From assembly GCA_040954595.2 (NCBI GenBank), contig CM082594.2, positions 8,501,573-8,565,572 on the forward strand: a stretch of 64,000 nucleotides of DNA, given 5' to 3'. A program made the position numbers and the translations under genes. The notes below the pieces were generated by a model that saw only the letters and a program-made list of their open reading frames with translations, was not told where the DNA came from and ran no database searches. The stretch's first letter is position 1. The number at the start of each line of letters is the position of its first letter. The DNA comes from Balanoglossus misakiensis (lineage: Eukaryota; Animalia; Hemichordata). Of the stretch, positions 1 to 34,843 are shown piece by piece.

Positions 1-1094
1 ATACATGCTTATTTAGCCGAGGAGGAAACGGTGATGAGATAGTGGGAGAGAGTGAAGGCCAACTTATGCTGTAGTCATTAGGAATAATGAGCAAGTTAGT
101 TAAAACTGGCATTTCATTACACATGATTATTACCACGGCGTCAAGTCATCATTCTTATCGGGCTCATCTCGTCTCTATCATTAGAGATGTGTAGGACATC
201 CATCATTACCTGGAGGAGAGGAACAGGCAGCGTCTGTGTATGCTGCTGTGACTCAAAATTTTTTTTCTTCTTCGAATATCCCTTGCAAGTCGGCATTATT
301 GACAAAACAGTCTGTCTGGCAAAATCGTGTCAGATCTTGTCTTACACCGGTCACATCATTGTAGTTATTCATGTCATACATTCAATTCAATCAGCACTGT
401 TTATCCCTCATCTCAGCTGTGTGTACACTTCAACAACCCTTCTCCCTTTCAACTCAGTTGTGACATCATCATTTCCCTTCATCAATGTCAGCATATTTAA
501 AAGTCACCATCAGAAAAGATTTCCAGCGTACTAAACAAAGATGTTCATTTTCCAATGTAATTTGGCCGACTTCCTTAAGTCAATATTGTATTCCACTTTA
601 ATTGAGTCCAAATTGATCCCAAATTTCGTATTAATACAGAAAATGTGGCAACTGGAACATTCAATTCCTACAGGAGGATAGTGTATAATTAAAACCATAC
701 AATTTATTGGCACTTAAACAGTTTTGCTTTATACGACTCGAAATCGCTAATGTGATTTTCATCTTCACTTGTAGGAGTTGAGATTAGATTGAGGAAGTGG
801 GAACAGATGAGGTCACAGTTGATGATTATTTATTTGGTGCCCTTTCGTAGACTTTGCCAACAAAAAAGTATGACATGGCTGCTACAGGATGTCACCACAA
901 AAAGATGGATAATTTCTAGGCATCTACGTTGGTTCATTAAGTTTTACAAAATGTTAACATTGAAAATTACAAAAAATAAATGTGAATAGCAATAGTACAG
1001 GTGTTTTCGCAGCTGAGCTAGGTGCCATACATCTATGATTGTATAATACAAATATTAAGAATTATCTAAATATTTGTATTAACACAATTAGGAG

Positions 1095-1095
<1 letters not shown>

Positions 1096-1134
<39 letters not shown>

Positions 1135-1183
1135 ATTTATGTATGTATGTATGTATGTGTGTATGTGCATGTATGTATGCATG
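1096..1183. repeat. Compound microsatellite (TG)n-(TATG)n
   Basis: Direct reading: tgtgtgtg... followed by tatgtatgtatg... with degenerate tail. Confidence 0.9.
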
Positions 1184-2418
1184 TAAGTTCCAACAGGATC
1201 TGTTAAATCACTATTCAAAGCTTACAAATACTCAAAAATTTAATTTGTCAAAAGAGACCCTTTAAGATGTTCAATTCACTATACAGAATAATTGGATATC
1301 ATTGCTTTGAATTGGTAAACACAGCACCACTATGCTCTACTGACTCGTAACACAGTGTTACAGAGACAAACATGACCTGTACATACAAACTGTATTACTT
1401 CCTACAAGTGTGGTCAAATTTGCAAATGAAAATCCTTGTGAAGTTTCACAGTTAGATTAAAAGTAGAAGTCGGGACATCAATTTCTGTTGGTCGATAAAT
1501 TACAGGAGATCGCGAGTTAATACAAGAGACAAAACAAAGGAGAGAAAGGGATAGTATCTGATTTGAAGTGGAGCATATAAAATGTAGACATGGGGTCATG
1601 AATGCAAGTTGTGAACTGACAAGTTTGCAGATTAAACTGGGCTTGTAAATAAATGAAGAGTTGATGAAATAGCCGGCGTAATCAGCTGTAACTTGCGCTG
1701 ATCAGGCGGTAATTGGAACTGTGCTCCGTGAAGAGGCCCCGAGTAATTTGCCATTGGAAATTTAATTGTACCACTGTTCATGTTGGAAAAGTTAAATAGT
1801 GGTGTGCGGCGATGAGGGGAATGAAATCACCCAGACGCGCTCGTTAATCTCCGCGCGAAGAGCAATCGCTGGCAAATCAAATTGACTTCTGTTTGGATAT
1901 TCCTGTTATATATTTGACGACATTTCCACTCTCTTGCCGTCGGGGTCAGATAAATTGTCAATACACTTTTTATGACGTGGCAGCTTTTTTTTTCCTCGAC
2001 TGCACTGATGAAATTGATACTCGAAAATGTATTATCTGTATGAGGGGGCTGCCCTTTTATTCGTTTGAAGAAAAAAAATGACTGTGTGTGTCTGTGTGTG
2101 TGGTTATGAGCGAGAGGGTTGTTTACAGTGTTGGTGGCATCCAGACATGGTTGAACAAATTATCCAACAAATAGTGTATTGAAGCCAACTTTGTTCGGCT
2201 GTCAACAGGTTTTATGCCTGGCTTGATTGATAGCGTCATAACTTGAGCAGCTTTCTTTTAGCGAGGAAATGGTTCATTGCAATGTTTAGCTCTTCTCATA
2301 TTTCATGCTCACCAATTCTTTTGTCTTTTCCCTTTTGTTTCTCCTCCCGGGATGTCTGTGGCCACAATCACCGGAACACTCGACTGACTGTGAATGACCC
2401 AACTTTAATAACCTTCAG

Positions 2419-2421
2419 TTT
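2419..2421 (+). CDS. SOWAH: Candidate 3-nt microexon (TTT, Phe) of Sowah
   Basis: ccttcAG|TTT|GTAAGT. No AG between 2290 and 2416; branch-like TGCTCAC at ~2306-2312 followed by a pyrimidine tract at ~2316-2348. It supplies the aromatic residue of the SOWAH motif G-[F/Y]-TALHWAAK directly before the phase-0 exon at 14541. Confidence 0.65.
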
Positions 2422-5400
2422 GTAAGTACATTCTTTTATTGTCTCTTTTATACCTGTCTGACTGGAATCGGGGAAGAGAGGGGGACAGGGGAGGTCTGTT
2501 TGAAACAACAAAAAATCGTACATCAAAGAGAGAGCGCTGCCGGAACAAAGTGGTCGTCAGTTAACAGGGAGGACCTCTTGTCTCTGGTGCTCGGTTACTG
2601 TAGCTGAATCAGGCAGATGCTGAAGGGGGTTTGCTAATCTAGCATGCATTGAGATTCCAATCATCCATAAAAAGTTGAAACTTTGGTGCTGGTCTTCTGT
2701 GAAGTGGACGAGTTCAGTAGGTTTGCATTTTAAGTTGATGTCAGTGGTTCAAATACAATGAGCAAGATTTCACGAATCAACCTTGCCCCTTGGACACCGT
2801 GTGTGGAACTGCCCAGGTGGTTGGGGAAATCATAGAATCGATGGATGGTATCAGAGTTTGAGAGAAAATGTAACCAGGCTTGTCAAAGTACTGTTTGCAG
2901 ATTTCTCAGTCATGTTTTTGGTAATGCCACAAGATCATTCCAAAATGTTTTGAAGATCACACAATACCTTGCATAGATACTTTTGATTTGCTTTCAAAAC
3001 TTCGAGATCATGTTTGTAAAGTGTACGACACTGTGTGTAGATATGTCAAGTGTTGTGCGACATTTTCAAAACCTGTGAGGTGACATATGTGGAGTTCAGA
3101 AGACTCTGGGGGTGATGTTTGTTGGGTTCACAACCTTGTGCTATCTGACACTTGTCATCGCCAGAACATGGTACTCGAAATGACCGTTGATGGGAATGTC
3201 CTCTGGACTGCGGCTGACGTCTCTTCAACCAGGGTGTCACGTGAAGATACCATACGTGTTGGTCAAGTCTTATCATCTTGTGATTCAAAGATGTGTATGA
3301 AAGATTTGGAAAAAAAATCCATGCTTTGTAGATGACCTGTTATCTGCTATATGCCTGTTGGTTTTCTGATGTGTGTGTGCTGAGCTTGGTCTAAAAATGA
3401 CTGTGTGTTTCCAAATGAAGTTACTTTCTATTGGCATCACCTAGCTGCCCTGCAAGCATGCACGCATGAATACATAGCATGTCAGAACAAATGGCTGGTT
3501 CTGAATGTAACGTCTCTGCTCCATTTCAACTAATTAGAGAGATGGATTCAGGATTTTCAGTTGCGGAGTGGATTCGCAGTTTTTGCTTTTGGTTTCAGTG
3601 TTGTCGCAGGGCCTGGATTTGAAGTTGTTAGGGGGCTGGTTGCAGCGTTGGGTTCATAGTTGTTGTGGGACTAAAATCAGAGTTGTTGTTGGTCTGGATA
3701 AAGCGTTTGGCCAGATTCAAAGTGGTTCTGGCTGGATCAGAGTTGTTGCAGGCTGCAATGAGGATATACAGTTGCACTCATACACACAGTAGTCACATAC
3801 TCAACACGTGATTGATCAGTAGCTGGGTTGGCTGGCTGGGACACTTGATGCCATTTACAAATTATTGATGTATATGCTCTTTAACATGTTTCCTCCTGCG
3901 TTGGTGTTCACCTGGAGTCTGTTGAGTGGGCACAGGCTTTTCCTTGGTACACATCAAAATTAGCCCACAATAGACAAAACAGCTGCATCAATTTACACTA
4001 ATGTAGAAAACATATTATCGAGAGTCAAAACACATCAATTGAAGTGTACAGCATTTAAACGCATGTAAAATATTACCATATGAAAGCTGACAAGCTCATA
4101 TTGACCGCTACTGTGTGTTAGACAAAGGAGGAAAGAAAAGCTCGCTGTTGTAGATTTGTGGATATATGTCAGAGTACACCTAATTACGATGCTTTAATCT
4201 GACATTTCAGATATATTCATGGTAAGAGATTTCAGGGTTTGATATCTGAGAGGCGGAAGGCTGGAATTTGTGATTGATGTGCGGAGACGTCTTGCAGCAC
4301 GCTGCTGCTGCCAACATGTTGTACCCGCTCCGATGTCCCAGCATGCACCGGGATGTCGGAGAAATGCCCCTAGTGATGGGGTATTTTAATTGCCCATTGG
4401 CTCATTAGCACTGCCCGGGAACCCGGCCACGTCCTTGTCAGACACCCTGTCCTACACGCAGCCGGGCTTTGGGGTCTGTTGTTTACTTTGTCCAATGTAG
4501 CATAGTCTATGTTTGGACACTGTTCGCTCCGAGAGGCTAAGTAAGAATGTGACATATACATGTCCGGGCCGGTATAGGCAGCCCAGCGCTAATTAGTTAA
4601 CCATGTGTGCATCTTGTACTATGTACATAGTCTAAATCGTCCTCTCTCTTGGGCGTCTAATTACCAATCGGGGCGAACCGAACTTCTTCCGTCCTCCGCG
4701 TCCACAGATTGTGTCAGTGACTGACCACGTCTTGGAGAATTTCTCTCGTCTGCTGGATGATGTTATTATCCGAGTGCCTGCGTGTTCACCCCTGTTGCTG
4801 GGTTGAGCCAGTGTGATCAATACAAGGTGATCTTTGAGTGTGTAATCTTCATTAAATTCTGCCGGGTCACTTAGTGCCACAGTGACAGAATGTCCAACTC
4901 CCCCACTTTTAAAGGCAAAACTCATAAAACAGCCACCGGTCATTAAGAACGGGATGATTTAAGTTTATCGAGAAAGAGGGTGCCAGCCTTCACTCTGTGC
5001 CCAGTTAGGCGGGGTTATAAATCAAAGTTTTGTTTTCATAAAAAACCTGTAAAACATGTCTTACATTCAGTGTTTTTACGGTGCAGTATATTCTATGACT
5101 TATTGAGAGCATGTTAGTACAAAATTGTAGAGCCTTAACAACCATGTCTGTGATGACGTCTCGGTCCGGGACGACCTTCAGCTGTGTGTTTATTGCATTA
5201 CAGACAATGAGAAGGTGCACAAAAGCAGGGGCTGGACAGTTTATACACTGGTGCAGTTTTTGATGGAATAGAGGATGTAAAAGTGGACGCTGCCAAATTA
5301 GGCTGATGTGAAACAGCGGAAGATGGCCCGGAGTGGTCGGAATAGATTCGGTCACGCTGGGATCTCGGTTTTTCTTCTGCTCTGTTGGGTTTGGGAAATG

Positions 5401-8400
5401 TCCCCTCACGCGTCCCGACTTCCTTTCCGACCGCGAGCCCCCCCCCCCCCACACTTTGAAAGTAAGAAGGCTGGCGGGAGGGGATAGAGAGTGGCACGCT
5501 TCTGTGCGCGTGTGGTTTTGTCGATCTCCCACACGCTTTTGAAAGTTAGAAGGCCGGGGATGCCGCGTGAGGAGGAGAAGTGCCACAATGGTGGTTTTTT
5601 TTTTCTTGTGAAAGTTTCTTTCCCTTCCCGTGTCCCGACTGGTAATAGCTTGTATCACAATATTTGGACAGCTGAAGAGTTGACTTGTAAACTGGGATAA
5701 TTGTCCCCTCTCTTCTGGTGTCCTCACAAGCACTACGTGTAATTCTCACACCCCTTCCTATTATACCAGCCCAAAGATTTGTTAGTTTGCCCGGCTAACT
5801 GTCACCTTGTAGTTGTCAAAGTAACACAACAACAAAAAAACGACTGTGATTTATTTGGTTTTACTCACACTGTGTACAGTTATGTGTCCAAACATTGTAG
5901 AAACCGCTGCTTACAAGCGTGTCAAAACCGGCCCAAGGAGTTGTATCGTGCAGCCGAGGGGATAAGAGTTGAAATCTCCGGTAATCTAATCAGAAACATC
6001 TGAAGTGTTATAACAAGTGTGCTGATTAGGGCATTCTTCAGATCTAGGGTTTCACTCATTATTCCACTCCTAAAATTTAACAGTCGCATCTTAACCTTTT
6101 ACTTGTGATGGGCAGCTGTGTCCTGGCGCCTGTAAAAGTCAGTTTTATCCATATTTTGCTCCGCAATAAATGGCCCTCTTTCCCCGGGATGGCCGCTATA
6201 AAGAAAATGAGGGTTCTCAGTTATGCCTTAAGTGTGTGTAATTGGCACACTAATGCAATTTATTATTGAAAAAGATAGCAAGTATCTGGCAGCATTTCTT
6301 AATAATCCGAAACCCGAGATGCCCAGTACAAGTGGTGTTCCGCTCACTGTGCTGCGGACTGTCTGGACAAGGCCTGTTGCTACTGTGGAAGCTTACCCTA
6401 GGAGGTAGAGAGCACTGCGATCGGCATGCACTCACAAACAAGACAATTAAACGTCAGGGGACCCCACTGTGATTTAATGCTCATTACAACCATCGGGTTC
6501 ACAAGTTCACTGTTTCTTAACTAAAAACAGTAACTGCTAGAAATTACCAAGTTGTAATGGACCAGTCTGTGCTAGGTAGATCTGGTGTCAAATGTCACCC
6601 GTCTGTTGACAGTTTTATTTCTACTCCTATGTGATGTTGGGTTTTATTACAATATAAATATTATTGTATTTTACCAATGTGCAAATATAAATCATTATTG
6701 TAGGTACATGTGTTTTTTCTCCATATGATACTAAATTCCAATTAACATTGCTGTTTGCCTGGAGATTTTTCAACTTTGATTGTACATCAAGATTTTTTTC
6801 GCAGAGAAACGCAGCAAGCAGACAAAAATGTGAAAGAGGAAATTTCAATTTGATATTGTAAGCATAAAGTCAAACCACATGGTGAAGTCAAAGTTTACAT
6901 GATGTCGGGCAGCCATATTATTTTTATATGACGGCTAAAAACCAGTTCTTGTAAACGTTCTGATTTCCAATCAATTTGGCAGATGGTTCAATTTAGAAAC
7001 AATGATAATGAAAGAAGTAAAAGTCATTAAAAGACAATAAAATAAATGAAGTATTGTCTTGGTTAGCAATTTGGAAACACAGGTGCAAAAATCTTCTAAG
7101 TCAATGTTTAACATTCATCATTTCATCTTCTGACAATAAGTAATAAGAAAATATGTGGAGAGTGTAATAGATGAAAAATGAGGCATTATGGGGGATTATT
7201 AAAGTATGTATTATTGAAGTATTAATCATCTGTTTTGATTTGAATTAAAGTAGATGATGGCTCGAAAATGTTGCTGTCATAACTTGCTCTGGAGAAAGCG
7301 GGCATAAGTGATCCATGCAAACTTCCCTAACTGAGCATGCACCAATCTGCCTAACTGTACTGCATAGCATCAGAGAGAGAGATATTTAATGAAAATATGC
7401 AAACACACCAGTACGGCTGTGTTGTTGGCGGCCTAAAACAGACATTTGTGTCTGATGTCAAACATAATGTTGTATTGATCTCCAGAAAGATAAACCCAGA
7501 TGAGTTAATTCTCTGCACTCTCTTTGACCGAAAGAAGTTTACCATATCTCTGCAGTTAACCTCTGGTTTCTATACATAGCAATAAAGCAGTGATCATGAT
7601 GTTCTTATAAAGTGGTGTAGATTATGCTCATCTCTGCAGCAGTTTAGACAAAGATAATCTGTGCAGCGATGCGGATTAAGCTAATCTGTTTATTTCTCTT
7701 GACATAATCTCCACCATTGTATGGATGTGGATTATGAAGCTTTAAGACCTTCGAAGCAGCAAATGGAGCTAATCGCGCAACTCTAGTGGATAAGCATAAT
7801 CTTTGTGACAGATTAAAAATAATCGTGTAGCAGATAGAGATGATCCCAAAGCAGATAAGGATTAGCCATCTGCAGGCAATGATTATCTGTTTAGCAGCGC
7901 GTATAAGGATAAACTGCTCTCATAGATTGATGGTGATTTTTGCCACATTGTTGATGATTACGGGAATCGCCATGGCGATACAGATGAGTGCAGCGCTCGC
8001 AGTGCAACAGATAACCTCCGCTAGTTGGATCAAAGATAATCTCGGAGATAATCTCTTGATACAGCTCATCTCTTAATTGCTGCGGGAATTAGATAAACCC
8101 TGTATATAATTGCTGTAGAGGAGTGTAAACCAGTGTATTGTACATGGAGTGTCTTTGCCATACTGGGACTGGAGTGTTGCCATAGTTACCACTTCAGTGC
8201 CTTGTCAAACACCAAAACACAACACGAAAGTTGCTGTTCCACAAATTCTCAAGTGAATCGGTACAGAAGATACGATAATTATTATTCATAATGATTATGT
8301 TTAGGATATAAATATTGTTGAACAAAAATGCTATTTTAAAGAATCTTGGTCTACATTTGGTCTGAAGTATTGCCTTGTGTTTTATCACAGTAGGTTCTCA

Positions 8401-11400
8401 TCACAGCGTATCATGATAGCCACTCACTGCCACACATATTGCCTGGAAAGCTTCAGGTACACACAGACATGCAGTAATTTGACACTTTTGGGTGATTATT
8501 TATTAACTGCACAATATTTTAGACTAATCAACCTAGAGCAAATTTTATCGGAAATACTGTATACTTTTTATTTATTAATATTTAAGTTCCATAATATTTA
8601 TAAATATTTGAGTGCTGCTGATCTAAAATACCTAATCAGGCGAGATTGCAATCTGCAGGGTGTTCTGAATTTCAGGCGAATTGGTTTACTGGGAAATGAT
8701 TCTTTTGAATAATTTTTGTGGGTTTTTTCTTCAAAAAAGCCTCAGTAATTAGCTTTGTGCAGTCTCAAATTTAGTAAAATGGCTTTAAAATGTTTAGTGT
8801 GTAGTATAGTCAGTGTAACTTTCCTCGCCATGATATAGTGTCCTTTCAACCAATCTATAAAGTAAAATAGAGTAAAGCCCACTTGAAACCTCCATCATTG
8901 TTCTGCTGTTCAAATGTTCAATAAAAACATCAATCAAGTCGGTGCTCTCTCTCCAACAAATTGCGATCTAATGACACCCTAGCAATCAGGCCGCCAAATT
9001 CATCACTATCTGCCAAAATATGCGATGTGGTGTCAACGTTTTCTTTCGGATAATGACACGTAAACAAAACGAAATCTGCCTTTATAGGTGTGATGGCAAT
9101 TCTCTTACAATAACTCCACAGGAAATAATCTAAATCATTACAAGTAGTTGTGTGTAACGTTGACAATGTTTTTTTACCCAAAGTCCAAGATGACCTTATA
9201 GAAATGTAGTTACAAGCATGATACATCTTAGTAAATCAGCTTTAGCCTACACAAAGAAGCTGTTTCATGTCGAGATCCAGGTTTGGATTGTCTGTATTAT
9301 CTAACATTGAGATTCATTTAAAATCACACTGTCTTCTTTCAAGTGGTCGAACCAGATGAAAATATTTACACTCCAAGTGCACTAGATCCCAGTGCGCTAA
9401 CCAAAAGTGTCAGTGAAATAGAAAATCTTTTGTTGTTTTTTTAATTTGAAGAACAAAGAAAAGGAAAGTGACTTTTTGCCGTGTGTTTGCGTTGAGTTTG
9501 AGACTGTTGACTTGGTGATTTTTGAAGGAGTTTGGTTGCAGGGTTCGAGCTTTTGTTACACGAATGATTGAGAGATGACATCAGCTGCTACATCAGTGAA
9601 GATGTGAACTTTCTTCGCCACTCTGTGAGCCCGTTGTCTGACTTCTATCCCAGCAAGTGCGTGGATTCTTGATGTAATTTATGCAGACGTGGGTGCAGAC
9701 AGACGAACATGATGTCAGCATTTTTGCTGTGTGATCTCTATCTATTTATTCTTATCAGTAATACAGTTATGGTTTAATCTTATCATCCAATCTGACTTCA
9801 TTGTTGACATGTTTTTGGACTTGTATCCCCCCATCCAGTTTGGTGATTCACATACTTGGTTTGCTCAGCTTCGAGAAGAGTTCAAAGGTCACGTTTCTCA
9901 ACTTTTTCGTTTAGTAACCCTCCATGTATCCTAGAAATATGCAGCAAAGAGTCAAGGGGAATATCATTGTGGAGCACACACGCTCTGAAAGGTGTTTAAT
10001 TGACCCTTTTCTGATGTTGCACTCCAAACAACAATCGGACACAGCAGGCCCCGGTTAACAAACGAGTCATGTTAATTTAACTAATTCTTCCAGCACTATG
10101 TATAAAAAATGATTTTTTTCCGAAAAAAAAGACTTGTTGAATTTTTGTACCGAGTTGAACCCAGAGGAAGTGTCAAGTCACCCGTTAAAATTGACCTGTT
10201 GTCACGGTTACAATTAGGGGATAATTGAGTCTTGTAAGGGTGACCTTCAGTCTTGTTTCCACTTGTAGATTAGCGATTGTCAGCCAGAGATCTCACACAT
10301 CAATCAAAGGGAATAAGTCAACTTCAGCCATGTCCAGCCCTCTTGGCCAATCTGGTTGTTCCCGGCAACCGTTTCTCCCCCAGTAGTAAGATGAAGTGTA
10401 TACATGTAAAGCTGTAGCTTTATTTGATGTCAATTTGAGAGCAGACTGTCAAAAACTATTGTATAATAATATATGCAAGATCGTTGATAAAGGTCTGTAA
10501 ACTCAAATTGGCAGTGTTCCAGCTTCTGAAGAAGTCGTCGGATGTCGCTCACATTTTACTTCATTTCTCAAAAAAATTTAAAATCTAATTTAGGATGGGT
10601 CTATCTATATTAGTCATTGATAAAAAGAAATTTCTGGATCTAAAACAAAATATGTAGACTGCAAGATATGTTGTAACATCAAAAGTGGTGACATTAAAAA
10701 TTTGTCCTACACGTGTCATATAGATAGGTAAAGTATTATCTCATAGACTTATGATATCTGTTTAATACACTGTTAAGATAACTACATCATTCAATTGTTT
10801 CATAATGCATGATTTATTAGAAACCTTGATAGCTTCTAAGAAGATTTCAAACAAAATTGTGCAATTTTGGATCAAGATATTCAATTTTCATATCCCAAGA
10901 AATTATTTTGCTGCAATTTTCTCAAATTTTATATTTGTGTTTAACTATTAGAATCAGACTGGAATTTGCAGTTCATTTCTAGATTTATTACTGAATAATC
11001 AGATTTTGTCAAGTAGGTTTTTTTTCTGAAACGTGATGTTGTCAGCTGTTTTCTCTCCGAAAAACATGTTGATATATTAAAGCTTGGAGTGTTTCTGTAG
11101 TGTATGTTCTAGCTCAGCCTTGTGTATACATGCATGTTGCATACAGTTTCCTGTGTTCCAGTGCTGCGGTTGGATATATTGTCGCTTATAATTCATCCGT
11201 TCTTTTCCGCCACCATGATATGAAAATTCATTTTCTCATCTGCGTGGCGCTGTGTATTTTCCTATTGTCCAATTTGAAAACGAATACAATCGTTTATTGA
11301 AGGTAAATTTTGGCTTGATTACATTTTGGCCATGAGAGGTATCATTTGTTGGTTCGCGATGATTTCTGAGATACAGTTACATCTGGGCGAGTTTATCTTG

Positions 11401-14400
11401 GCTATGTTTCATGTAGATTTTCACAATGCGCTGCAGTAATAAAAGCTCTTTACCCCCACTCCAGTCATCAGCGTGTACACACAGACTACCAAATGTAATT
11501 TAGTTTTCTAAAAACTTTGTCAACGAAAGAGCAACCGTGTTCAAACATCACTTAATAGGGGTCTTGTTGGATTTCTGTCTCTAGCTGGGGAAGTTTGCAA
11601 GCAAGTCTGGAAATGTTGCTTTTAGTTGTATACCGAGTGCAGGCAGGCTTTTGTGCCGGGGTTTACACGACTAAATGAAGGACATTTACAGACTGGTTGT
11701 CCTGTTTGCCCGGTTAGTGGAATCTCTCCAACTGTACATAAGAACTGTTTGCTTAGCCTTAACAGTTCCAATCAGGAGCGTGTACTCTCATGCAAATGAT
11801 CAGCCACGGTGATGGATGTTCATCTGTTGACATTTTGTATGTACATCGCTGATGAATGTGTTTCTAGACGTTGTAACTACAGGTATTAACAGTTATTTTT
11901 ATCTGGCCCGGGCCCCTTTCAACAGAAATTAAATAGAGAACTCGGCGGCGACAACTAAACAGTCGCTAGCCGAGTGACTCCCATTCTCTCGCAAAACACA
12001 GCCACCTTTTGTGTGAATTGCATCAATTCTGCGGTTTGCTGCGTTGAGTAGTTTCGCCCGCGCAGTCACTGAGAGATGTAACCCCCCACCCCGACCCACT
12101 CTATGCAAGTAGCACAACACACAGTGATTTGGCAATATTTGAGTGAATTGATGAAAAAAAAAGGAAATGATATGCGATCGAGTTTTCAGATATGTGCTTA
12201 TATCAGGTGTGTTCTGAAAAGTCTTGAAATACGTCGACGTTATCCTCAGACAGGTACTAGTATTTTGTATAGACTAAGTGGAGCCCAATCTGGTGATAAC
12301 GTCTCCATCAAATCCCCTCCATCTGGCGTGATTATCACCGTATTAGTAGAACTACTACCTTGCTTATTCCCGGCAGTCGTGTCTTGTTGGTTTTTTCGCT
12401 GTGTAAGTAACCTCCCACCAAATCTAGATCTCTGATAATCCAAATCTACTTAGACGAACCAAGTGCGTTATCACACAGCCCCATTGCAGCAAAACAACAT
12501 CATGATTCTGTCGTTTAATGAAAAAATCAAACATCTCGATTTAGAGTTCATTGCTTTCGTGGAGTTCTGTTCTGTGTCTGTTGCGGGATGCCCGTAACGT
12601 TGCTTGATGTCGATCAAGCAACGTGTTGGACGCCGTGTTTGCAGTTCATAGCCATGTCAATGAACTTTTTCACTGATGTTACTGCGTGATGCTTTAACCA
12701 CAGGGGCCGGGGTAACGTGTGCCTTATCATCAGTCGCACACAATAGCGACATCAACTCACATCTTGAGTTCCCCCTCCATACTTAGACTGCCAGCGTTTA
12801 ATAACTTACACAAATACAGAGTTGATCTGGGCAGTGTTTGTCTTGGACAGACTCTGACTTCAATATCTGGGCTCTTTGCCTTTTTTTTCTTCTTCACCCC
12901 TGCCATCTTTGACGAGCGGGTATTAGACGGGTCAATATTGTAATGGAGATTAAAAGTGGTGTTGTATGCATCTGGTATGGAGTCAAAGAATTGAAAACAT
13001 GTCGGACAACATTGAAATAAGCGGAGACAATGCACGCAACCAGGTTCCCGGACGCAGAGAGATACGCAGAGATTTGTCCGGACTTGTTGCTGTGTATTTG
13101 CCTTCTGGATGTGAATGTTGGAGTTGACTCAGATACTTGGACAAGAATGTGAGAAAGGGAAAAGAGACATTGGAAGGACCCAGAGCACACATAAGAAAAT
13201 GTTCTAGAGTTTATTGGGGGAAGGGTGAAAGGTTAAGAAAACAAGGCTTTTGACAAATCTGACACTCTGGGTGAGGAGTTGCGTTTCTGCCCGATGGTTT
13301 TGACATGGCAGGCTTGTATTGTCGCTGTCCACTCACGAAACATGTTAACCCCAATAAATGTCATGTACAACAGAACTCGTATTAAGACTGTCCGAAGTTG
13401 AAAAGTTACAACGTGTAAGCCGTGTAATTCTGTCAATTTCTATTGTGCCGGTTGGCATAGCTTCAAAGAAAAATAGTTGCCAAGTCATACGGCGATGTGT
13501 GACAGCCTTGCTAATATTTCATCCCAGACCCTGTTGACAGTACAATTTGTATTGCGCTCCAGTTCTGTGTTTACAATAAATATTATTTACTGCAGGGGCA
13601 CTTGGTGAGAAATGCTGGTATCACTTCCCCCCTCTGAACGAGAAAAAGTCAGTTTCGTCAGTTGCACAATCTTTTGAGGAGTTTACGAGAGTCGTCGGGC
13701 CACTTTATGACCCGCCCTGTATCCAAGGCAGTGCTTCTTGGTGGCTGAAATTTTTGGGAAGTGCCGGTCGTAGAAATTATTCGCGCCAAAAAACGTGTTA
13801 CCAGGCATTTTATTTGAGCTGGGAGACAAGAGGAAACTTTTAAATCGATTTTATTAAAGGCTGTAAACAATGTATTCCTTTGTCGCGGAAGATGTGCTTG
13901 GCTAACTTTACATTTACGTTTCTCTGAGGCTGACAATCGCGACCATATTGCTAGGTTGGGATTGTCCTCGCTTTCTATTGTGTACAAGAAACAGTTATCA
14001 TTGATTGAGGAGTCACCTTACAGGGGGAAACCATCGTATAAGCCTGGAGGCTAGCCGTGTTGTGTACGCTGTAAAGACACAATAAAAACTGACAAAGACA
14101 GTCTCATAATTCAGGAGGATGGGACCAGTTGTTGTTTAGATGTGGGCTTGCCATCATCACTACCTATTGAAATAAACCAGTCATTTTAGTCTCCACCATG
14201 TAGGACATTTACAAAGCCATTGAAATCGTAAACCGTAATTTAGTTTTATGTATGTACAACAGGCAGCAACATGTTGGTTTCCATTGTTCCGCTGAAAATG
14301 TGTAATATGGTCGAGTGGTTTATGTATCAGTATCATTTCAAACACTTCTGTTTTTGTTATTCTGCAGTTTTATAAATAGTGTAAAAATGGATGTTAATGT

Positions 14401-14540
14401 CTGTGATAAATCATAATGTCACAGCTACTGTGTCTTTTATTGTCCAGTGTCATATGGTATCTCTAGATCTCTCTTAAATACGTATTCATTTTTCTTTCGA
14501 TTGTCATGGATTTTTTTCGCTCTCTCTCTCTCTCCTGCAG

Positions 14541-17500
14541 ACAGCGTTGCATTGGGCTGCGAAACATGGGAAAAAAGAAATGGTGAAACTTCTGGCGGGG
14601 AGACGAGAGCTGGACATTAATACTAGGAGCGTAAGTGTCGTCTATATTAAAATTCCATCATGTCTGGTCGACATCGCGTAACGTGACGTGTGGTATTGAT
14701 TCTGGAATTTTTTACAGCCATCATAGAGTGTACCAGTTGACATTTATTCTGCAGATTCGATGCGACTTCATGCGTCATAATCGCTACTGATAGTCGAGCT
14801 ATCATTTTTGCCTAACTTCGTACTGCCGGACAGTACGTAGGAGAGCAGCGACTGCCTAACTGCCCATGATGAAAAATTCCTAGCTTGCCCATATTATGCC
14901 TAACTCACCACACCGGACCGAAGCTTGCTTTATACTTGGGACGAATCTGTCTCGTTTGTAATTGAAGCCTCAGAGTTGTCAGTCTACCAATAATGTTAAC
15001 TGCATGAAGGAAAAAGAGTGTTCAATTATATATTTGCAACATTTAAGTCAAACTTCCATTTTCTTTCCTTTGTTTGTTTGTTGGTTTGTTTGGACGGACT
15101 GGTGTAGCATGGGGTAAGTGTCATTTTCCTTCAGCTCTTGTAAAATATAAAACTGAAGCGCGATATTAAAGTAACACTGACATCTGCTTTCAATATTAAT
15201 ATTCCAGCAGAATCATGACAACTTCAGTATATTTCAAGAAAAGACCTTTATACTTAAAGATGGTCGGCCTGTAAGATTGTACGTCAGGGTATTAGATATT
15301 TTAGTCGAAGAAGTTTTGCGTGATGAAGAGCGCCATCAGTTGACATGCATCCTTTATACGCTTGTTTTTTCCCCAGGGTTACACTCCTCTACATATTGCA
15401 GCGATACATGGACACGATAGTGTTATACAGATGCTTGTCTCAGACTTCAGTAAGTGACGTGTATATATCTGTGTCAGACATTAGTAAGCCAATATACAAG
15501 AGAAAGGAATTTTTATGGTGACTTTTCTTACAGGTGGTTTTCATTTTGTTGCATTTTTAAACAATCGATCCCGCAATCTTGAAAAAGTGACTTGATAAGT
15601 GTCAAGTTAATTCTCAAAACTTGCTATTTCAGAGGCAGATGTAAACGTTCGTGACTACAACGGCAAGAAAGCCAAGCACCACCTGAAGAAGGGCACCCCC
15701 AACCACATCCAACGTAAGCTTGATAGTTCTCTGAGTCAAAAAGAGCGGGAAAGTCATGACACTGGCGATGGTGGCCATGACGATTTGGAATCGGATGATT
15801 TTGACGAGAAAGGTGTCAGTGGGTTTGTGAGAGCGTTGAGTTACAGGTTCTCATTCCGTACTCCGCGGAAGGGATCCATGAGGAAATCCCGGAAGAACCA
15901 GAATGGTACCACTCATTAGTTTGTGGTGCCCGTCAACTGTCATCTTCCAGAATTCATTTACACTGATCATTATATTTTCCACAGAGTTGACGTATAAATA
16001 TGTTCTAGTAAATTTTTTCAACAAGCAGCATTTTGATATTTACAATGGAAATTTAAAGTTGAAGCGATAGGATAGTGCATGGCTAGTCAATTGTATAGTG
16101 GCATGTTTAGTTGCATTTCTAGCGTTAATCCTTTAACCAGTACCAAAGTTATCAGAATTTGTCCAGAATTTCTAATTTTCTAATCTAGTTACGACATTGA
16201 TGTCCCATCGCTTGTGTGTAACATTAGAACAGCGAGTACTACTTGAATGATGGGCTATTTACATACAGTGTTAGTCTAAATGGCGATTGGCTGAATTGAT
16301 AGAATACTTACACATGATTGGCTGCCTGAGTGCATCATGGTAGACCAATCAGGATTGGTTACCTCGGTAGTCTACTTACAAGTTACAGATGATTGACTAA
16401 TTTTCCAAGAATGTATTGAATCTAAATTTGACTGGCAGTAGATGAAGATTTTCTGGCAGAGAAGTCAGTTGGAAGTGTGCAATAAGTCAGTGCGTGTATG
16501 TGTGTCCAGGCACTTTTCAAGCTGCCTGTCACAGTGCCTTACAAATCTCAACCCCCAGCTCTTTCCACATGCATGAGTGTCCAGCATCTCATGTATCTAT
16601 GAGTACTATGTTGCTGTATGTCTGTATTGTGTATATGTATGTATCATAGCTGTATTTGTGTGTATATGTCTGTCAAAATGTAAAGTAATTTTTATTATCG
16701 AGCCTCTGGGGACAGCTTTATAATTACACAAAATGAAAAGAATAAGATTTATTTGGTTGGAGAACTGTATGACCAAGTCTTTCAGTTTTGTTGTACTTGT
16801 TATAAAGACACCATCAGGAGTACACTTTTTAGAATAGCTGTATTATTTTATCAACTTTTGTCAGTTTTGATTTTTGCCGACTGTTTCAAGCACGATTGTC
16901 AGATGTGTTCCCCATGTGACTGTGTTTAGTTTTAGTGAGACCTTTTGTGAATTCTCTATTGTACATTAATCCCCAGTAAGTATTTCTGTAAAAGTGTAAT
17001 TTATTTGTCTTTTTGTTCATAAGTCCATGTTCCCTGTTTTTCAGTATCCCCAGTTGACCTAGTTTGTGATATAATTTACATTTTAACCCCGAAACCTGTT
17101 GGCTGATCATCTTCCCTGCTTTTATTTCAAAATTTAAACCAATAAAATCCAGCAGCCGAGATTGCACCTGTAACTGTGCGCTTGGTGTTGTTTCTGACAG
17201 GGCTGAAGTTGGCATTTTTGAAGCTCATTCCAGAAAGTAATGTTGATGTTGTTAAGCAGTGTGATCAGAAAAAAAGCTGGATGGTTGATGACCTGAGCAC
17301 AGGGTCACTCTCGTTGAACAGCACAGTGGTTTTAATTATTTCAGGATATTATGTTTAAAAAATATATGTTTATGCTCACAAGTTGGACGTGAGCCTTGCT
17401 GTCGTGACTACCACTTGACTATAGCACAGTTTGTACATACACTCCCCTTCACACTCACAGATAGACACACACACACACTTTTCACACATGGTGAACAGTT

Positions 17501-19274
17501 TGTGTATTTACTGTACCATACACTTGAGCACACACTCACACACATACACACACACAAAAGAAAAACTTTCTTTTTCAAAAATGGCAACTTCAGTCCTCGT
17601 ATGTATCCTTGCATGGCTAACCTGGCAGTAACTGAGTACCACCTACATGTAGGTACCATAAAAAAACTAAAACACTTTGGTGATAATACTTCAGTGCTGT
17701 GTATCTTTCCACGGTCTTCGATCTCACTGCTTAACTTGGGACAGGTCTTTCTCAACTGACAACTACAAATGGTTTCTTTCACTCTCTGTGGTTACCAGTC
17801 AGCAGAATCATTGCCTGACTTGTCCATATTTTAACAAAAGTAAAATTGCAGTGAAAACTTTGAAAGGCAAACTTCGCTCTTTAACACAGCTTTTCATAAA
17901 TAATTAGCACAAAGGGGTCAAAGTTTTGTAAAAGTGTTATGATTAAATAGTAACAATGATTTCACCCTGTGATAAGGCATAATATGTAAAATAATTTTAG
18001 GATAAAATTCCTATTCTTGATAAATGAAAAGTTGAATTTTCCCACTTTTTGTGCAGTTGATTGTTTTTTGCAGTTGATATAGATGTCCATTGCTTGGCCT
18101 CCCCATCATTCCACACCCTCATGGCACTTCCCCATGACTCCCCCGTGTTGCTATGGTGACTCACAGAGTGGTACCTCGACTTCTCTTTCAGTGTTCACAT
18201 GTTGATCTTGCTATTTTTCTTCCTTATTTTCTCCCAGAGATGTTACAGGGTAATGTCAGAGGTAAGAAGAACTTTTGCACTTTATTTTGGCTGGTGAACA
18301 GTTCTTACGATATCTTGTGATTTAATGATGTACAAACACTTAAGGGCGACGATTATCTTATGTGCATGTGCCAAACCAGAGACTCTGGTTACAAAAACTG
18401 TATACAGTCAATGCCATAAGGCAGTGTGTGCTGTGGGATGTTGTGTTAAGGTATAAGGTGTAGTGTATGGATTCCAACAGAAGATTTCATTTCACGAACA
18501 AAGTTGACGTCGATCATCATCAATTATCTTCCCATTGCCGGCAGTGTACAGCGTCAAACGCAGAACACAGAGATCCAACTCCATCGAGAAGAAGAGATCC
18601 AGCGTTCCGTTCTTCAACAAGCCTCTCAAATGGGGATCAGCTGAGAACCTGAGTCAAAGCAAGAAAGAGAAAACTCCACCTGCAACGCCGCCGTCGTCAC
18701 CAGCTCTGAGAAGACAGAATTCATCCGATGCCTTTGACAAAGAGGTGGGCATGATTTGTTAGCAATGTAATTGAACTGAAATGGTGAGCTGATAGAAATT
18801 ACACATACTATGTAATCTGGCTCTTAAGGTTTAATACATGTACAAGTAATGTGTAACAGTGTAAACTGTACATATTACTTTTATGTGAATGAAACACATT
18901 CTTAGTGTACTGCTGGATAATATGTAACATTTTTGTTTTTGGTGATTTGTATCCATACAGCTGATGCCACCCCCAAAGGCACCAGGAAGGAAAAGTAGGA
19001 AAAAGAAGACGGAATCCCTTCATGGATCTAGGTTGGTAATGAGCTATTAAAAGTGGTACTTATATCTTTGGAAAATGTGCATGCGTTGTGTGAAATAAGG
19101 ACAACTTTTATGGCAGTGGCTATACCACTTTTTGTACTGAATCAACTGATAATACACAGTTGCTCTTTAAATGAGCATCTCTTGAAGTCGTTCTTTGCAT
19201 TCTTCTTGAATAGGGAGTCACACTCTGAGGACCCAAGGAGATCACAGTCTGAACCAGACCTGCTGGCGGATTGA
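14541..19274 (+). CDS. SOWAH: Sosondowah (SOWAH)-family ankyrin repeat protein, 3' coding exons; 5' part lies upstream of the window
   Basis: Exons 14541-14630 (TALHWAAKHGKKEMVKLLAGRRELDINTRS), 15108-15113 (HG), 15377-15449 (GYTPLHIAAIHGHDSVIQMLVSDF), 15633-15713 (KADVNVRDYNGKKAKHHL...), 18238-18261, 18545-18744 (...KWGSAENL...), 18961-19031, 19214-19274 (...SEPDLLAD*). All are GT-AG with consistent phases. The two ankyrin repeats match my recollection of SOWAHA/B/C (TALHWAAK..RSHGGYTPLH..RD.SG). Confidence 0.88.
15108..15113 (+). CDS. SOWAH: 6-nt microexon (CATGGG, His-Gly) of Sowah
   Basis: ggtgtAG|CATGGG|GTAAGT after a long U-rich tract with no AG at 15048-15105. It restores INTRS-HG-GYTPLH, matching the ARSHGGYTPLH motif of SOWAH. 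Confidence 0.85.
17440..17556. repeat. Degenerate (CA)n-rich microsatellite in a Sowah intron
   Basis: Interrupted acacac runs. Confidence 0.7.
18340..18431 (+). mobile_element. Terminal fragment of an interspersed non-autonomous DNA transposon (TTAA-flanked; second copy at 37631-37721)
   Basis: ttaagggcgacgattatcttatgtgcatgtgccaaaccagagactctggttac...cagtcaatgccataaggcagtgtg aligns along its length with the reverse complement of 37631-37721; both end at TTAA. Confidence 0.65.
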
Positions 19275-22278: not shown

Positions 22279-24848
22279 TTAGTCATCAGGTTCATATTTT
22301 CTAAGTCTTCGTCGGAGGTCCTTGATCTGTTCATTCTTCTTCTCAAGCATTTTCTTCAAATTCTTGTAGGCTCCAGTTTGACTAAACTTCTTTTCAAGTT
22401 CCTGATTGTATGACAAACATAAATTTAGTTACAGACTTCCATCAGCACTGCAGAGAAAACTTTCAATAACTGATTATCTCTCAAACGAAACTTCTTTTAA
22501 ATTTTCAAAATGATCATCCCATCCCACACAAGCGTCTGCACTGTCACAGTGGATGAGTCAAACTAAGCATTGAACCTTTCTTGTCTCACCTTTTCAGCCA
22601 TTTCCAATTGTTCTTGTATTTCCAACAATCTGTGCTTTGTGTTCGCAAGATCTCCTTCAAGCATATCATGTGTTGCTGCACTGGATTTTTTGTTCTGAAA
22701 AGTGACAAAAATATTCAGTAATGTTTCCAGTGGAAATCATTGTACACTAAATGATGTTCGGCCAAATCTGGTTGACTTGTTTGGACGAAGTCGAAGAAGA
22801 GAGATTACAATTTCTCGTACCTTTTCCATTTGCATCCTGACCGCCGACATCTGCCCTTCCAATTCTGATAAATCTGCACCTGTGTCACTGCCAGACCTTC
22901 CTTTCATTCCCCGCAGTTCGTCTTGAGTCCGATGGAGATCTGATTCCAGCTTTGACTTGTCTTGTAACATCCCAGTTGCCTGAGGATGCAAATAGAAAAA
23001 CATAGAGTTGTCTCAGTGTACATCCGTGTGAAGTTTACCCACAAAGCAAGTCTATCTAATATCATATGACACTCTACCAATGAGTAGCAAAAATTAGTTG
23101 ACATTCATCCATAGAATGACCCCAAAAATTACCACAACTATTACCATTCCGCACTTACTTTCATTTCCACAGACTTTAATCTTTCTCGGAGTTTCTCGTT
23201 TTCCTCGTTAAGTCTGTCGATTTCTTTTTGAAGCAACTCTACTCCTCCGGCTTCAAGTGGCGACAGTTTCTTCATGTCAAAATTGGGTTTTCCTGACTGG
23301 GGGGAAATCAAAAATCAAACTCATGTCTAATTACAAATACTATAGATAGTATTTAATGTCACCAGCATCATCAAATTAAACATTGAATTATACTCTAGTT
23401 AATCTTTGTCCAATACTTACTGGTTTGCCAGACACTTCTCTTTCTTCAATATCTTGAATTAATTCAATTAATTCTCTGAAACCATAATACAATATTCATA
23501 TCAGCTGTAATTGTGTTGCTATCAATATTGTATTTTTGTATTTGATCTATTCATGGGGGTCTCACTCCCACCTCGTGGGTCTACAAACTGATATTTATGG
23601 ATGAGTTTATTTCTTGATAAGATACCAACAAGACAATTCCACATATATACCTATTTTCTAATTCAGAAATATCAGCTTGTAGTTTGAGATGCCATTTTTC
23701 AGCTTGCTGGAATAGCTGCCTCAGTAGAAGGACATTAGTGTGAGTTGTGTTGATTAATTCTGTTTCCACTTCTCCTCTGACCACTGCTTCCAGACCGTCC
23801 AACATCTCGATGACCTCATCGACTGTAAATGTATCATCAGTCAACCTGGGTAGACAATCAACGATAACTTGAATAATATATGAATTGTTTTATTAAAGGG
23901 GGGACAATGTGCATAAGATTTATTAATTAATTAATCTCAATTGTATATTCATTGTCACAGTGTCTGAGCTCTGAGGATGTGAAATGCAGCCAACCTGCTC
24001 TCCTTCAGATCGTCAAAGCTTCCGTCCACCACACGCAGATTCTGTCCTCGTTTGTAGCGCGCAAATCTCATGTAATTCAAGACTGTTTGCTGGTGGTGGT
24101 CGTTCAGTCCAAGTTCCGCCTGGGAAGAAAACAAAATTAGTAATTATGATTAAGAATATCATGTAGCTGCAATAATATTTTTGGTACTATCATATCAGTG
24201 TAGGTGATATATGTGCGCAATATTCGTATTGGTATCGTGGTTGGGTTGTGCCCTCGCGATTGTGTCACGTTTCCCTGGAAACAAGGTAATTTGCATGCTA
24301 TGCATTCAATGTAGGAAGACGTTGTAATTCCCTTGGAAACCGAGTGTGCTAATGATCTTAGCACTGTAGGTGTACGATATTTCACGGGTTTCTTGGCTGA
24401 GAATAGTGCAAAGACAGCTGGAGCCAGTTATGCACCGCGCACCGACACGATTCTTCTTGATGGGCCGGGCCGGGTGGGCGGAGATCTGTTTCACGGTGCG
24501 GTCCGAGAGATGAGGCCGTGATCAAGGTGAGTAGCATCATGATCGATTTGCGTTTGAAAGCCAGAAAAAACTATAGCTATATACGATTTGCTTCTATCGA
24601 TGCACAGTTCAGACGAAATGGAAAAAAACTCAGACACATAGGTGTTTGACAGCTCCGTTAGTAACCGTACAATTACACTTCTTGAGCGATGTTGACTGTT
24701 GTTGATCGCGTTGAAATCTACACACAATACGCGCGTCACACCAAACGCCGATCTGAGATGCGAAATAAACACGATCGACATTGGTAAAAGTCAAACCCTT
24801 AGTTCATGAAACTGCCAAAGTCAACAAGCATCCTGCCATACGTACCAT
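22279..24848 (-). CDS. LZTFL1: Leucine zipper transcription factor-like 1 (BBS17), ~300 aa, 8 coding exons
   Basis: Exons (minus): 24846-24848 (ATG only), 23995-24119 (AELGLNDHHQQTVLNYMRFARYKRG...), 23651-23845 (...KWHLKLQADISELENR), 23421-23475, 23159-23296, 22821-22979, 22590-22694, 22279-22401 (ELEKKFSQTGAYKNLK...KYEPDD*). Total 903 nt, phases consistent. N- and C-termini closely match vertebrate LZTFL1. Confidence 0.95.
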
Positions 24849-25700: not shown

Positions 25701-26135
25701 TCACTGAGGTCAATAGTCTGTCACATTATCAGTATGCCAAGTTTCATTGTGGCGTGATAACATTTGCAATCTTATTATGCTTTTAGCTTATATGTTGTCC
25801 CAATGTGTACTAATTTTGAAATATTCAAGTCCATGGCAAGGCTTGCATAATAGGCACCAATATACATATTTGTCATTTCTCAGTGAGTGGTGGGCAGTTG
25901 AAACTAAAAATAGGAGAAATTTACAGATGTCACTGACAGTTGGCCTGTTGGTGAATACATGTATGAGACAGCTGTATGGCCACAGCGTATGTTACGGTAA
26001 TGTATGCTGAGGCATGAATATGAATAACCGATATTTGTCCTTTTTCTGCATAGGTAGAAGTAGAAAATGGTAGGATTTGTGTAATCTTAAGTACCGCTCA
26101 ACCTGCTTTACGTCGAAAGGTGAAAGGTCAACACC

Positions 26136-33551: not shown

Positions 33552-34843
33552 ACTGAAGATCCTCCATAATGTTACCGATGGCACCTCATCCACTTATGAC
33601 TGGACGAATTTATTCAATGGACTTTATTTTCACATCAGCTGCAGTAATCTTCATTTCCTGGCTGTTGAGTATTCAAAAGACTTTATCCTCTAAAATAATG
33701 CAAATGCAGCTATCAATGGCAACTCTATTACGGACACGAAATTACATTTTCCATAGAACTTTTAAATATATGCTGCAGAATGTGACAGAATTGTAGTTTA
33801 TCAGTATTTTAATGCATTTGCACATGTGATAACAATTAAGGTATTGATATAGGGGTTAATAGAAAAAATGTTAAATCATTTTTGCTTCTATTTTACATAA
33901 AAAGTAATTGTAAAACATTTGACGTTAGTTTTCAGATATTTTTAGCAATAAGTATAAGGCCAGTTGAGAAATCAGGCAGGATATCAGAGCAAAGTCCATT
34001 GAGTTCTTCACAGCTTTGTGATTTTCTTTAAAATTTGATCAGCAGTGGCACTAACCACTGAAATAATTTGCAGATATGAATATAAAAGATTCTTGGAAGA
34101 AAGAGATTCTTCTGGTATAATAACCGAATATCATCTTCATAGAAGTGTAATTTCGTCCACTATTTATATATCATGAATATTGTGGGGATTAATTTGTGTT
34201 CCGCCCAGCTAGCTAGGATGGTGCTCACGAACACTGCCACACATTACATTGCAATATATCTCTTACCAAATATTATATGCTGATACCAAAAGATTAGACC
34301 TTCCAGTATTTTTCAGAACGATCACAACATGTAGTTTTCCTGTTTCTTAAACACTACTCTCTTCCATCAGCATTTTCATACTGAATTAAATTGTTCAGGT
34401 CTAATGTTCTGTCTGAAGCTATGTATGACTTTTTTGACCAAATCAACGTTTATCATAACATGATACATCTATATTTTATCTATTATGGAAAGTCTAAGTG
34501 TACGGAATGTCTGTTTTTGTTAAATAAAAATGTAATTATTTTATCAAAATTGGTGTGTATGTACTCTGAAGTGCTTTCAAACCAAAAACTATTTTCTTAC
34601 AAACAGATTCTGGTAGATGTTGTAGAGTGAATATCAAAAAACGTTAATTACATGAATTCATGTATTTCCATCTACATAACTTCACGTTTTGGCCAAAAAC
34701 TATGGCATGGAAATTATGGAAACTGCTTTTATATGTTTATGTCATTTTTTGAAGGTCAAAAAAGTATTGCGAAGGATGATAAAATGAAAATGTAGACTTT
34801 GACAAGCCTTTGATCAGGACAGTGTTTTATTTAGATGGGAGAA

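What the first reader, a model, noticed from the sequence alone, without database searches (positions are those of the whole stretch)
2290..2430. Single-codon (3-nt) microexon with a distant branch point, 12 kb upstream of the next Sowah exon
Seen: ccttcAG|TTT|GTAAGT at 2419-2421, preceded by a 127-nt AG-free zone (2290-2416) holding a branch-like TGCTCAC and a long pyrimidine tract about 70-105 nt upstream. This distant-branch-point layout allows very small exons to be spliced. The next exon (14541) starts in phase 0 at TALHWAAK. Established: SOWAH proteins have DF-x-[S/T]-G-[F/Y]-T-A/C-LHWAAK. Inference: this one codon provides the conserved Phe at the start of ankyrin repeat 1, and gene predictors would miss it. 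Skipping it would tune the repeat by one residue.
Basis: partly seen in the sequence, partly recalled or inferred. Interest (0 to 1): 0.78.

Follow-up and report, generated by a model that had tools for sequence, protein, structure and literature searches.

The report
Ancient one-codon exon in Sowah
Three bases with strong splice signals in the Sowah ankyrin-repeat gene of what is likely an acorn worm are very likely a real one-codon exon, but the matching exon is already annotated in the fruit fly as always included, so this is likely an old fixed gene layout that gene annotation often misses, not a new tuning switch.

Summary
AG|TTT|GTAAGT lies at 2419-2421 behind a 127-nt AG-free zone. It is the best of 61 possible 3-nt exons before the phase-0 exon at 14541. 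The gene is Sowah; the nearest protein is from Ptychodera flava, whose models skip this stretch. The layout is known: FlyBase-tagged fly sowah microexons of 12, 3 (Gly), 3 (Tyr) and 6 nt are listed as constitutive (PMC8042270 supplements). 5 of 17 metagenome loci carry a matching Tyr microexon, fused to Gly in one. 17 of 17 proteins without an NCBI model keep the F/Y; 43 of 103 NCBI models lack it. Tuning by skipping is unsupported though not excluded. The distant branch point is plausible but has a rival 31 nt from the acceptor. No RNA of this species was available. This scan found the same layout before in other genomes. Real, ancient, largely known.

The parts
2290..2416 (+). 127-nt AG-free zone upstream of the microexon acceptor
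   Evidence: 0 of 1000 shuffles give such a zone before a YAG-NNN-GTRAG; 2300-2430 folds less stably than 199 of 200 shuffles
2306..2312 (+). candidate distant branch point (branch A 2311, 107 nt from the acceptor); use is inferred
2313..2349 (+). pyrimidine tract directly after the distant branch candidate
2384..2388 (+). rival branch-like site at the usual distance (branch A 2387, 31 nt), with a weak pyrimidine tract (11 of 20)
2419..2421 (+). predicted 3-nt coding microexon (Phe), the x of the ankyrin G-x-T-A-L-H motif
   Evidence: orthologous Tyr exons
2422..14540 (+). predicted 12,119-nt phase-0 intron with a consensus GTAAGT donor
   Evidence: no other good 3-, 12-, 15- or 18-nt candidate coding the missing residues
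14541..14630 (+). 90-nt Sowah exon, ankyrin helices (TALHWAAKHG ... NTRS)
   Evidence: Pfam Ank 26.8 bits; 27 of 30 residues equal to P. flava SOWAHC-like
15108..15113 (+). second predicted microexon, 6 nt (His-Gly), not in the given finding
   Evidence: GTAAGT donor, 58-nt AG-free zone; 0 of 2000 intron shuffles give an Asn/His-Gly-coding site; raises the profile score from 101.9 to 114.6 bits; matches fly ME19
15377..15449 (+). 73-nt exon, next ankyrin repeat (GYTPLH...)
   Evidence: Pfam Ank 30.5 bits
15633..15713 (+). 81-nt exon ending the ankyrin domain
18238..18261 (+). possible 24-nt frame-keeping exon (untested)
   Evidence: good splice sites; the frame is open with or without it
18545..18744 (+). 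predicted Sowah exon with the WGSA motif seen in homologues; acceptor chosen by frame
   Evidence: against homologues
18961..19031 (+). predicted Sowah exon with the MPPPK and basic motif seen in homologues
19214..19274 (+). predicted last coding exon up to the stop codon

Best explanation
The three bases at 2419-2421 carry exact splice signals and are very likely a real, likely always-included one-codon exon of a Sowah gene, predicted to supply the Phe of the G-x-T-A-L-H motif and likely inherited as the last of an ancient 12 + 3 + 3-nt exon chain. Shown: the signals, the phase fit, a companion 6-nt exon at 15108-15113, and matching exons in the fly and in metagenome loci. Inferred mechanism: the exon is too short for normal exon definition, so it likely relies on a perfect donor plus an extended, unstructured, AG-free acceptor region, probably with the branch point and pyrimidine tract moved 70-107 nt upstream so that the two splice-site complexes do not collide. 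The codon is likely kept because ankyrin folding needs the G-x-T spacing; the introns persist or are lost lineage by lineage, which fuses the pieces.
For: Unique best 3-nt candidate and shuffle controls. Fly sowah has FlyBase-tagged exons of 12, 3 (Gly), 3 (Tyr) and 6 nt (Asn-Gly) in this order, all on the sheet of 128 constitutive microexons (PMC8042270 Tables S4, S5). Loci L003, L005, L013 have Gly + Tyr + Asn-Gly microexons, L007 Tyr + Asn-Gly, L017 a fused Gly-Tyr + Asn-Gly. NCBI models drop exactly these modules: 28 of 103 complete, 32 without G, 22 without F/Y, 21 with neither (some of the 32 are natural non-Gly residues, as in spiders); 17 of 17 proteins without an NCBI model keep F/Y, as do 21 of 21 transcript-type proteins covering the junction out of 23 examined (the two sets overlap). 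In 138 other ankyrin proteins, 1517 of 2290 T[AP]L[HM] motifs have Gly at -2, and 15 have it at -1 only. In 9 of 9 pairs in the compact loci the intron before a microexon is longer than the intron after it (related loci, not independent). The residue lies in the loop before the first ankyrin helix in a predicted homologue model.
Against: No transcript of this species was seen, so neither the junction nor constitutive inclusion is shown here. The upstream Gly and 12-nt exons are outside the window. A Phe/Tyr codon between YAG and GTRAG alone arises in 83 of 1000 shuffles. 12 of 17 loci show no F/Y microexon in 0.1-9.7 kb of available upstream DNA; ten of these look like non-functional copies and two (L004, L009) may simply end too soon. 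Several NCBI gene sets list isoforms of one species with and without G or Y, which may be alignment artefacts or real skipping. Assembled contigs drop rare isoforms, and many of the 17 proteins look like copepod sequences in which the introns seem lost. Orthologous Tyr exons have branch-like sites only 11-76 nt upstream, so a 107-nt distance is not a conserved need.
Confidence: 0.8

Rival explanations
1. The exon is real but is a regulated cassette: skipping it, alone or with the Gly exon, changes the ankyrin loop by one residue in some tissue, perhaps under the neural SRRM/eMIC splicing factor.
For: Long AG-free zones and upstream-shifted pyrimidine tracts mark neural microexons (passages of PMC8797185; section 20 of PMC12871342), and long-zone exons are more often alternative (abstract of PMC1431707). 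NCBI lists same-species isoforms lacking G, Y or both. Another fly sowah exon (46 nt) is listed as eMIC-sensitive.
Against: Fly ME2, ME3, ME19 and ME119 are listed as constitutive. No UGC within 30 nt of the acceptor at 2419 or 15108, nor at 3 of 3 complete Tyr-exon acceptors in the compact loci. 21 of 21 transcript-type proteins keep the residue. Skipping breaks the G-x-T spacing and lowers a homologue's profile score from 163.0 to 153.6 bits. Fusion of Gly and Tyr exons in L017 shows that separate control can be lost.
Confidence: 0.12
2. The exon is real and constitutive but uses the near branch site at 2387; the upstream pyrimidine tract acts as an enhancer or is incidental, so there is no true distant branch point.
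For: CTGAC at the usual distance of 31 nt; orthologous Tyr exons have branch-like sites at 11-76 nt.
Against: The site at 2387 is followed by only 11 of 20 pyrimidines against 17 of 20 for 2311, and the AG-free zone reaches back just past the distant site.
Confidence: 0.35
3. The site is a chance match in a long intron; the true F/Y exon lies upstream of the window or has weak sites.
For: 83 of 1000 shuffles contain a Phe/Tyr codon between YAG and GTRAG; no RNA evidence for this species.
Against: The joint pattern with a long AG-free zone is rare (8 of 1000 at 40 nt or more; 0 of 1000 at 100 nt or more for any codon); the only other F/Y candidate (7205) has a poor donor; orthologous exons share the GTAAGT donor and long zones of 43-127 nt.
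Confidence: 0.05

Closest known systems
Drosophila melanogaster sowah (FBgn0036302) microexons ME119 (12 nt), ME3 (3 nt, Gly), ME2 (3 nt, Tyr), ME19 (6 nt, Asn-Gly); FlyBase-tagged rows in PMC8042270 Tables S4 and S5
   Same: Same gene family, same order and lengths for the two exons inside the window (3 nt aromatic codon, then 6 nt x-Gly); that ME2 sits directly before TALHW is inferred from its order, its codon and the insect protein dropouts.
   Different: Phe instead of Tyr, His-Gly instead of Asn-Gly; 12.1-kb intron after the exon, whereas ME2 and ME19 lie only 3.1 kb apart; deuterostome; not in the P. flava models.
Neural SRRM3/4 (eMIC)-dependent microexons (passages of PMC8797185, PMC10250204, 10.1101/2024.09.17.613571; section 20 of PMC12871342)
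   Same: Very short, frame-keeping, long AG-free zone, pyrimidine tract shifted upstream, unstructured acceptor region, strong donor as in mammalian cases.
   Different: No UGC near the acceptor; the fly orthologue is listed as constitutive; it encodes a core residue of a folded repeat.
Distant-branch-point exons defined by AG exclusion zones (abstract of PMC1431707)
   Same: Branch-like motif and pyrimidine tract more than 40 nt upstream, with no AG in between.
   Different: Branch use is untested here and a near rival exists; those exons are often alternative.
Conserved, mis-annotated plant microexon clusters (abstract of PMC8831610)
   Same: Ancient tiny coding exons that annotation misses, with gains and losses across lineages.
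   Different: Unrelated genes and kingdom; an analogy only.

Membership tests
Coding microexon (30 nt or less) | Length of 30 nt or less between AG and GT with usable splice signals | tested here: met
Coding microexon (30 nt or less) | Present in spliced mRNA of this species | not testable with these tools
   no RNA holder listed; no genome held
Sowah / SOWAH ankyrin family | TALHWAAKHG ankyrin repeats most similar to named Sowah proteins | tested here: met
   best hits are P. flava SOWAHC-like, 91% over the aligned part; Pfam Ank
Sowah / SOWAH ankyrin family | C-terminal WGS and MPPPK-basic motifs seen in the homologue alignment | tested here: met
   open frame over exons 15633-19274
Sowah / SOWAH ankyrin family | N-terminal winged-helix domain (PF25877) and linkage to Iroquois genes | not testable with these tools
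   the 5' part of the gene is outside the window: P. flava protein hits only 14538-14639
Orthologue of fly sowah ME2 | 3-nt aromatic codon in phase 0 as the last exon before TALHW | tested here: met
   same position in L003, L005, L007, L013
Orthologue of fly sowah ME2 | Companion 6-nt x-Gly exon between the TALHW and GYTPLH exons | tested here: met
   15108-15113
Orthologue of fly sowah ME2 | Upstream 3-nt Gly exon and 12-nt exon | tested here: inconclusive
   no good candidate in 1-2418; likely upstream of the window
eMIC/SRRM-dependent neural microexon | Long AG-free zone and upstream pyrimidine tract | tested here: met
eMIC/SRRM-dependent neural microexon | UGC close to the acceptor | tested here: not met
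   none within 30 nt
eMIC/SRRM-dependent neural microexon | Neural-specific inclusion that falls on eMIC loss | not testable with these tools
   fly orthologue listed as constitutive; it appears in no group of the PMC8797185 supplement searched, which is uninformative
Distant-branch-point exon | Branch point more than 40 nt upstream actually used | not testable with these tools
   candidates at -107 and -31; needs lariat mapping

The most novel reading that the evidence does not exclude
The one-codon exons of Sowah are a 600-million-year-old switchboard: low-level or tissue-specific skipping of single codons reshapes the ankyrin binding loop one residue at a time, and the G-less and Y-less isoforms in NCBI insect gene sets are real products of it.
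Probability: 0.12. Interest if true: 0.6.

Novelty: new member of a known kind. Interest (0 to 1): 0.3.

Why it matters
It corrects the gene model of a deuterostome Sowah, whose nearest NCBI models lose six residues and read through into an intron. It extends an annotated fly microexon chain to a likely hemichordate, which dates the layout to early bilaterians (inferred). It offers a clean natural case of one-codon exons that are likely spliced every time across a 12-kb intron, with lineage-specific fusions (Gly+Tyr fused in L017; His and Gly fused here but apparently separate in L009). That suits work on how the smallest exons are recognised and why such introns persist, but the core fact is already in FlyBase.

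Tried and rejected
No genome is held for the window. RNA search: no RNA holder listed, so no reads were laid. Maeso et al. 2012 (PMC3317147), the main paper on Sowah gene structure, is not held; it may already describe these microexons. Main-text searches for sowah or sosondowah with microexon found 0 papers; none of the rows listed (40 of 339; 15 of 145) held both kinds of term; the fly evidence came from supplements only. The profile search of 1.84 billion representatives was swamped by multi-ankyrin proteins: 12 of 150 rows were single-stretch Sowah-like hits. The ESM Atlas gave only generic ankyrin clusters. The 120 proteins listed (of 681 found) carry only arthropod names where named, so no deuterostome or mollusc transcript was checked; one search found only P. 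flava. A hairpin bringing the distant branch point close to the acceptor was rejected: 2345-2416 and 2345-2378 fold no better than shuffles (z 1.01 and -0.11). Gly, 12-, 15- or 18-nt upstream exons inside 1-14540: no convincing candidate. Separate 3-nt His and Gly exons in 14631-15376: none among 5 candidates. One search (neighbouring coiled-coil ORF against P. flava Sowah) showed no similarity. The truffle codon-sized-exon comparison was not verified: one paper listed, not read. The fold search returned generic ankyrin structures. bioRxiv supplements were not available and could list the exon.

Full report
Observation. Every coordinate given is right: AG at 2417-2418, TTT at 2419-2421, GTAAGT at 2422-2427, no AG between 2290 and 2416, TGCTCAC at 2306-2312 and a pyrimidine tract at about 2313-2349. 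Among all 61 AG-NNN-GT sites on the + strand of 1-14540 this one has the best donor score on my own simple matrix and the longest AG-free zone. In 1000 dinucleotide shuffles a YAG-NNN-GTRAG site appeared in 592, one with a Phe/Tyr codon in 83, one with such a codon and a zone of at least 40 nt in 8, and one with a zone of at least 100 nt in none. The bare motif is therefore unremarkable; the combination is not.

The gene. Exon 14541-14630 is an ankyrin repeat, and its closest proteins are Ptychodera flava SOWAHC-like models, with 27 of 30 residues equal. The window is thus likely from a related acorn worm (inferred). Exons at 15377-15449, 15633-15713, 18545-18744, 18961-19031 and 19214-19274 give an open frame with the C-terminal motifs seen in homologues. 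The 5' exons are outside the window. The P. flava models X1-X4 join ...LYKQK straight to TALHW and read through NTRS into the intron, so they lack both the six-residue loop and the His-Gly.

A second microexon. At 15108-15113 lies AG|CATGGG|GTAAGT with a 58-nt AG-free zone, which restores NTRS-HG-GYTPLH. None of 2000 shuffles of that intron gave an Asn/His-Gly-coding site (89 gave any 6-nt site). Against a profile of 13 homologues the window's exons score 99.3 bits with neither microexon, 101.9 with Phe, 111.9 with His-Gly and 114.6 with both.

It is annotated in the fly. Pang et al. 2021 (PMC8042270; I read parts 1-3 of 4 of the text and matching rows of Tables S4 and S5) list five FlyBase-tagged sowah microexons: 12 nt, 3 nt (GGC), 3 nt (TAT), 6 nt (AACGGG) and 27 nt, in that order along the gene. 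All five are on the sheet of 128 constitutively spliced microexons, defined as PSI = 1. That the TAT exon is the one before TALHW is inferred from order and codon.

Independent DNA. A scan of metagenome contigs for an acceptor directly before TALHWAAKHG gave 17 loci. Five compact ones, springtail-like by similarity, show the layout: L003, L005 and L013 have Gly and Tyr 3-nt exons and an Asn-Gly 6-nt exon; L007 has Tyr and Asn-Gly (its contig ends there); L017 has Gly-Tyr fused into 6 nt plus Asn-Gly. The other 12 show no F/Y exon in the upstream DNA held. Ten of these form one family of five distinct exon sequences with 46 non-synonymous against 17 synonymous codon differences over pairwise, non-independent comparisons, so they look like non-functional copies; L004 and L009 have 708 and 4,656 nt upstream. 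In L009 the only two YAG-NNN-GTRRG sites in 9.9 kb downstream are His and then Gly, so the 6-nt exon is apparently split there.

Proteins. Of the 120 proteins listed, 103 have an NCBI model: 28 end the loop in G + F/Y, 32 in F/Y without G (a few are natural, such as spider K-F/Y), 22 in G without F/Y and 21 in neither. All 17 without an NCBI model keep F/Y. Leaving out copepod-like sequences and adding cluster members, 21 of 21 transcript-type proteins that cover the junction keep it, out of 23 examined; their transcript origin is inferred from source and contig size, and they are redundant, about nine taxa. The dropouts fall on the 12/3/3 module borders, which confirms the modules. Against my reading: several gene sets list such dropouts as isoforms of one species, and I cannot tell alignment artefact from real skipping.

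What the codon does. In 138 other ankyrin proteins, 1517 of 2290 T[AP]L[HM] motifs have Gly two residues before the Thr and only 15 have it directly before without a second Gly. In a predicted model of a homologue (mean pLDDT 77) the residue lies in the loop just before the first ankyrin helix, and the fold matches generic ankyrin structures. Skipping would therefore likely damage the repeat rather than tune it (inferred).

How it is spliced (inferred). The donor is the full consensus here and in 4 of 4 separate Tyr exons of the compact loci. The acceptor region 2300-2430 folds less stably than 199 of 200 shuffles, which fits the open, lengthened branch-to-acceptor region reported for microexons (PMC12871342, abstract and section 20). 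In 9 of 9 pairs in the compact loci the intron before a microexon is longer than the one after (related loci). The distant site at 2311 has the better pyrimidine tract (17 of 20), but a branch-like CTGAC lies at the usual 31 nt (11 of 20), and orthologous Tyr exons have candidates at 11-76 nt. I put the distant site at about 65%. There is no UGC within 30 nt of either acceptor in the window, which argues against eMIC control; passages of PMC8797185 and PMC10250204 tie that motif to eMIC targets.

Prior work. Sowah introns are known for holding Iroquois enhancers and the gene was replaced by retrogenes in tetrapods (passages of PMC5803294, PMC12311624, PMC3342872). Maeso et al. 2012 could not be read and may describe the microexons. 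Main-text searches joining sowah and microexon found none. Seven earlier notes of this scan report the same chain in other genomes, among them octopus and cartilaginous fish, with His and Gly as separate 3-nt exons; these are unchecked AI notes, and I tested only the fly rows and the split state in L009.

Verdict. A real feature with about 95% probability, constitutive with about 85%, and a new member of a kind already annotated in the fly. The additions are the acorn-worm-like case, the second microexon and the evidence for repeated fusion of the pieces. Interest 0.3.

Noticed in passing
window 15108-15113 (+): Second microexon (6 nt, His-Gly) of the same gene, not in the given finding.
   Followed up: yes
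window 18238-18261 (+): Possible 24-nt frame-keeping exon after the ankyrin domain; the fly has a 27-nt microexon and a 46-nt eMIC-sensitive exon in this part of the gene. Homology not tested.
   Followed up: partly
L009 3521-3523 and 2781-2783 (- strand): Separate 3-nt His and Gly candidates downstream of the TALHW exon, with AG-free zones of 57 and 141 nt: the split state of the window's 6-nt exon.
   Followed up: partly
L017, 100 nt upstream of its TALHW exon: Gly and Tyr codons fused into one 6-nt exon; in L003, L005, L013 and L017 the residues of the fly 12-nt exon are reduced to three and joined to the large upstream exon.
   Followed up: partly
L001, L002, L006, L008, L010, L011, L012, L014, L015, L016: A family of similar loci holding one Sowah exon that changes mostly at amino-acid level (46 non-synonymous to 17 synonymous differences), possibly a fragment carried by a repeat element. 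Three of them have an AG|GGA|GTGAGT about 2.9 kb upstream with no Tyr exon after it.
   Followed up: partly
window 2422-14540: The 12-kb Sowah intron may hold enhancers for a neighbouring Iroquois gene, as reported for other animals; not tested.
   Followed up: no
window 38475-57368: Satellite array of 217 copies of an 87-bp unit, 98% matches.
   Followed up: no
window 22300-24100 (-): Gene with a Pfam Leu_zip (PF15294) hit at 23620-23889; the label LZIC-like is recalled.
   Followed up: partly
window 26000-33600 (+): Gene with a 2.8-kb coiled-coil exon, a FYVE-like cysteine motif near 31740-31870 and a weak GOLD_2 hit; the label FYCO1-like is recalled.
   Followed up: partly
window 34858-34932 (-): tRNA-Gly (TCC) gene.
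   Followed up: no
window 35590-37800 (+), 57700-59230 (-), 61080-62000 (-): Three further genes: IMPACT-like (label recalled, no Pfam hit obtained), a GATA zinc-finger gene and a mitochondrial carrier gene (Pfam hits).
   Followed up: no
proteins P0044, P0160, P0400: Spider Sowah has a five-residue loop with Lys in place of Gly before the F/Y, and models differing by one residue in the second loop, which hints at a split 3+3 exon there.
   Followed up: no
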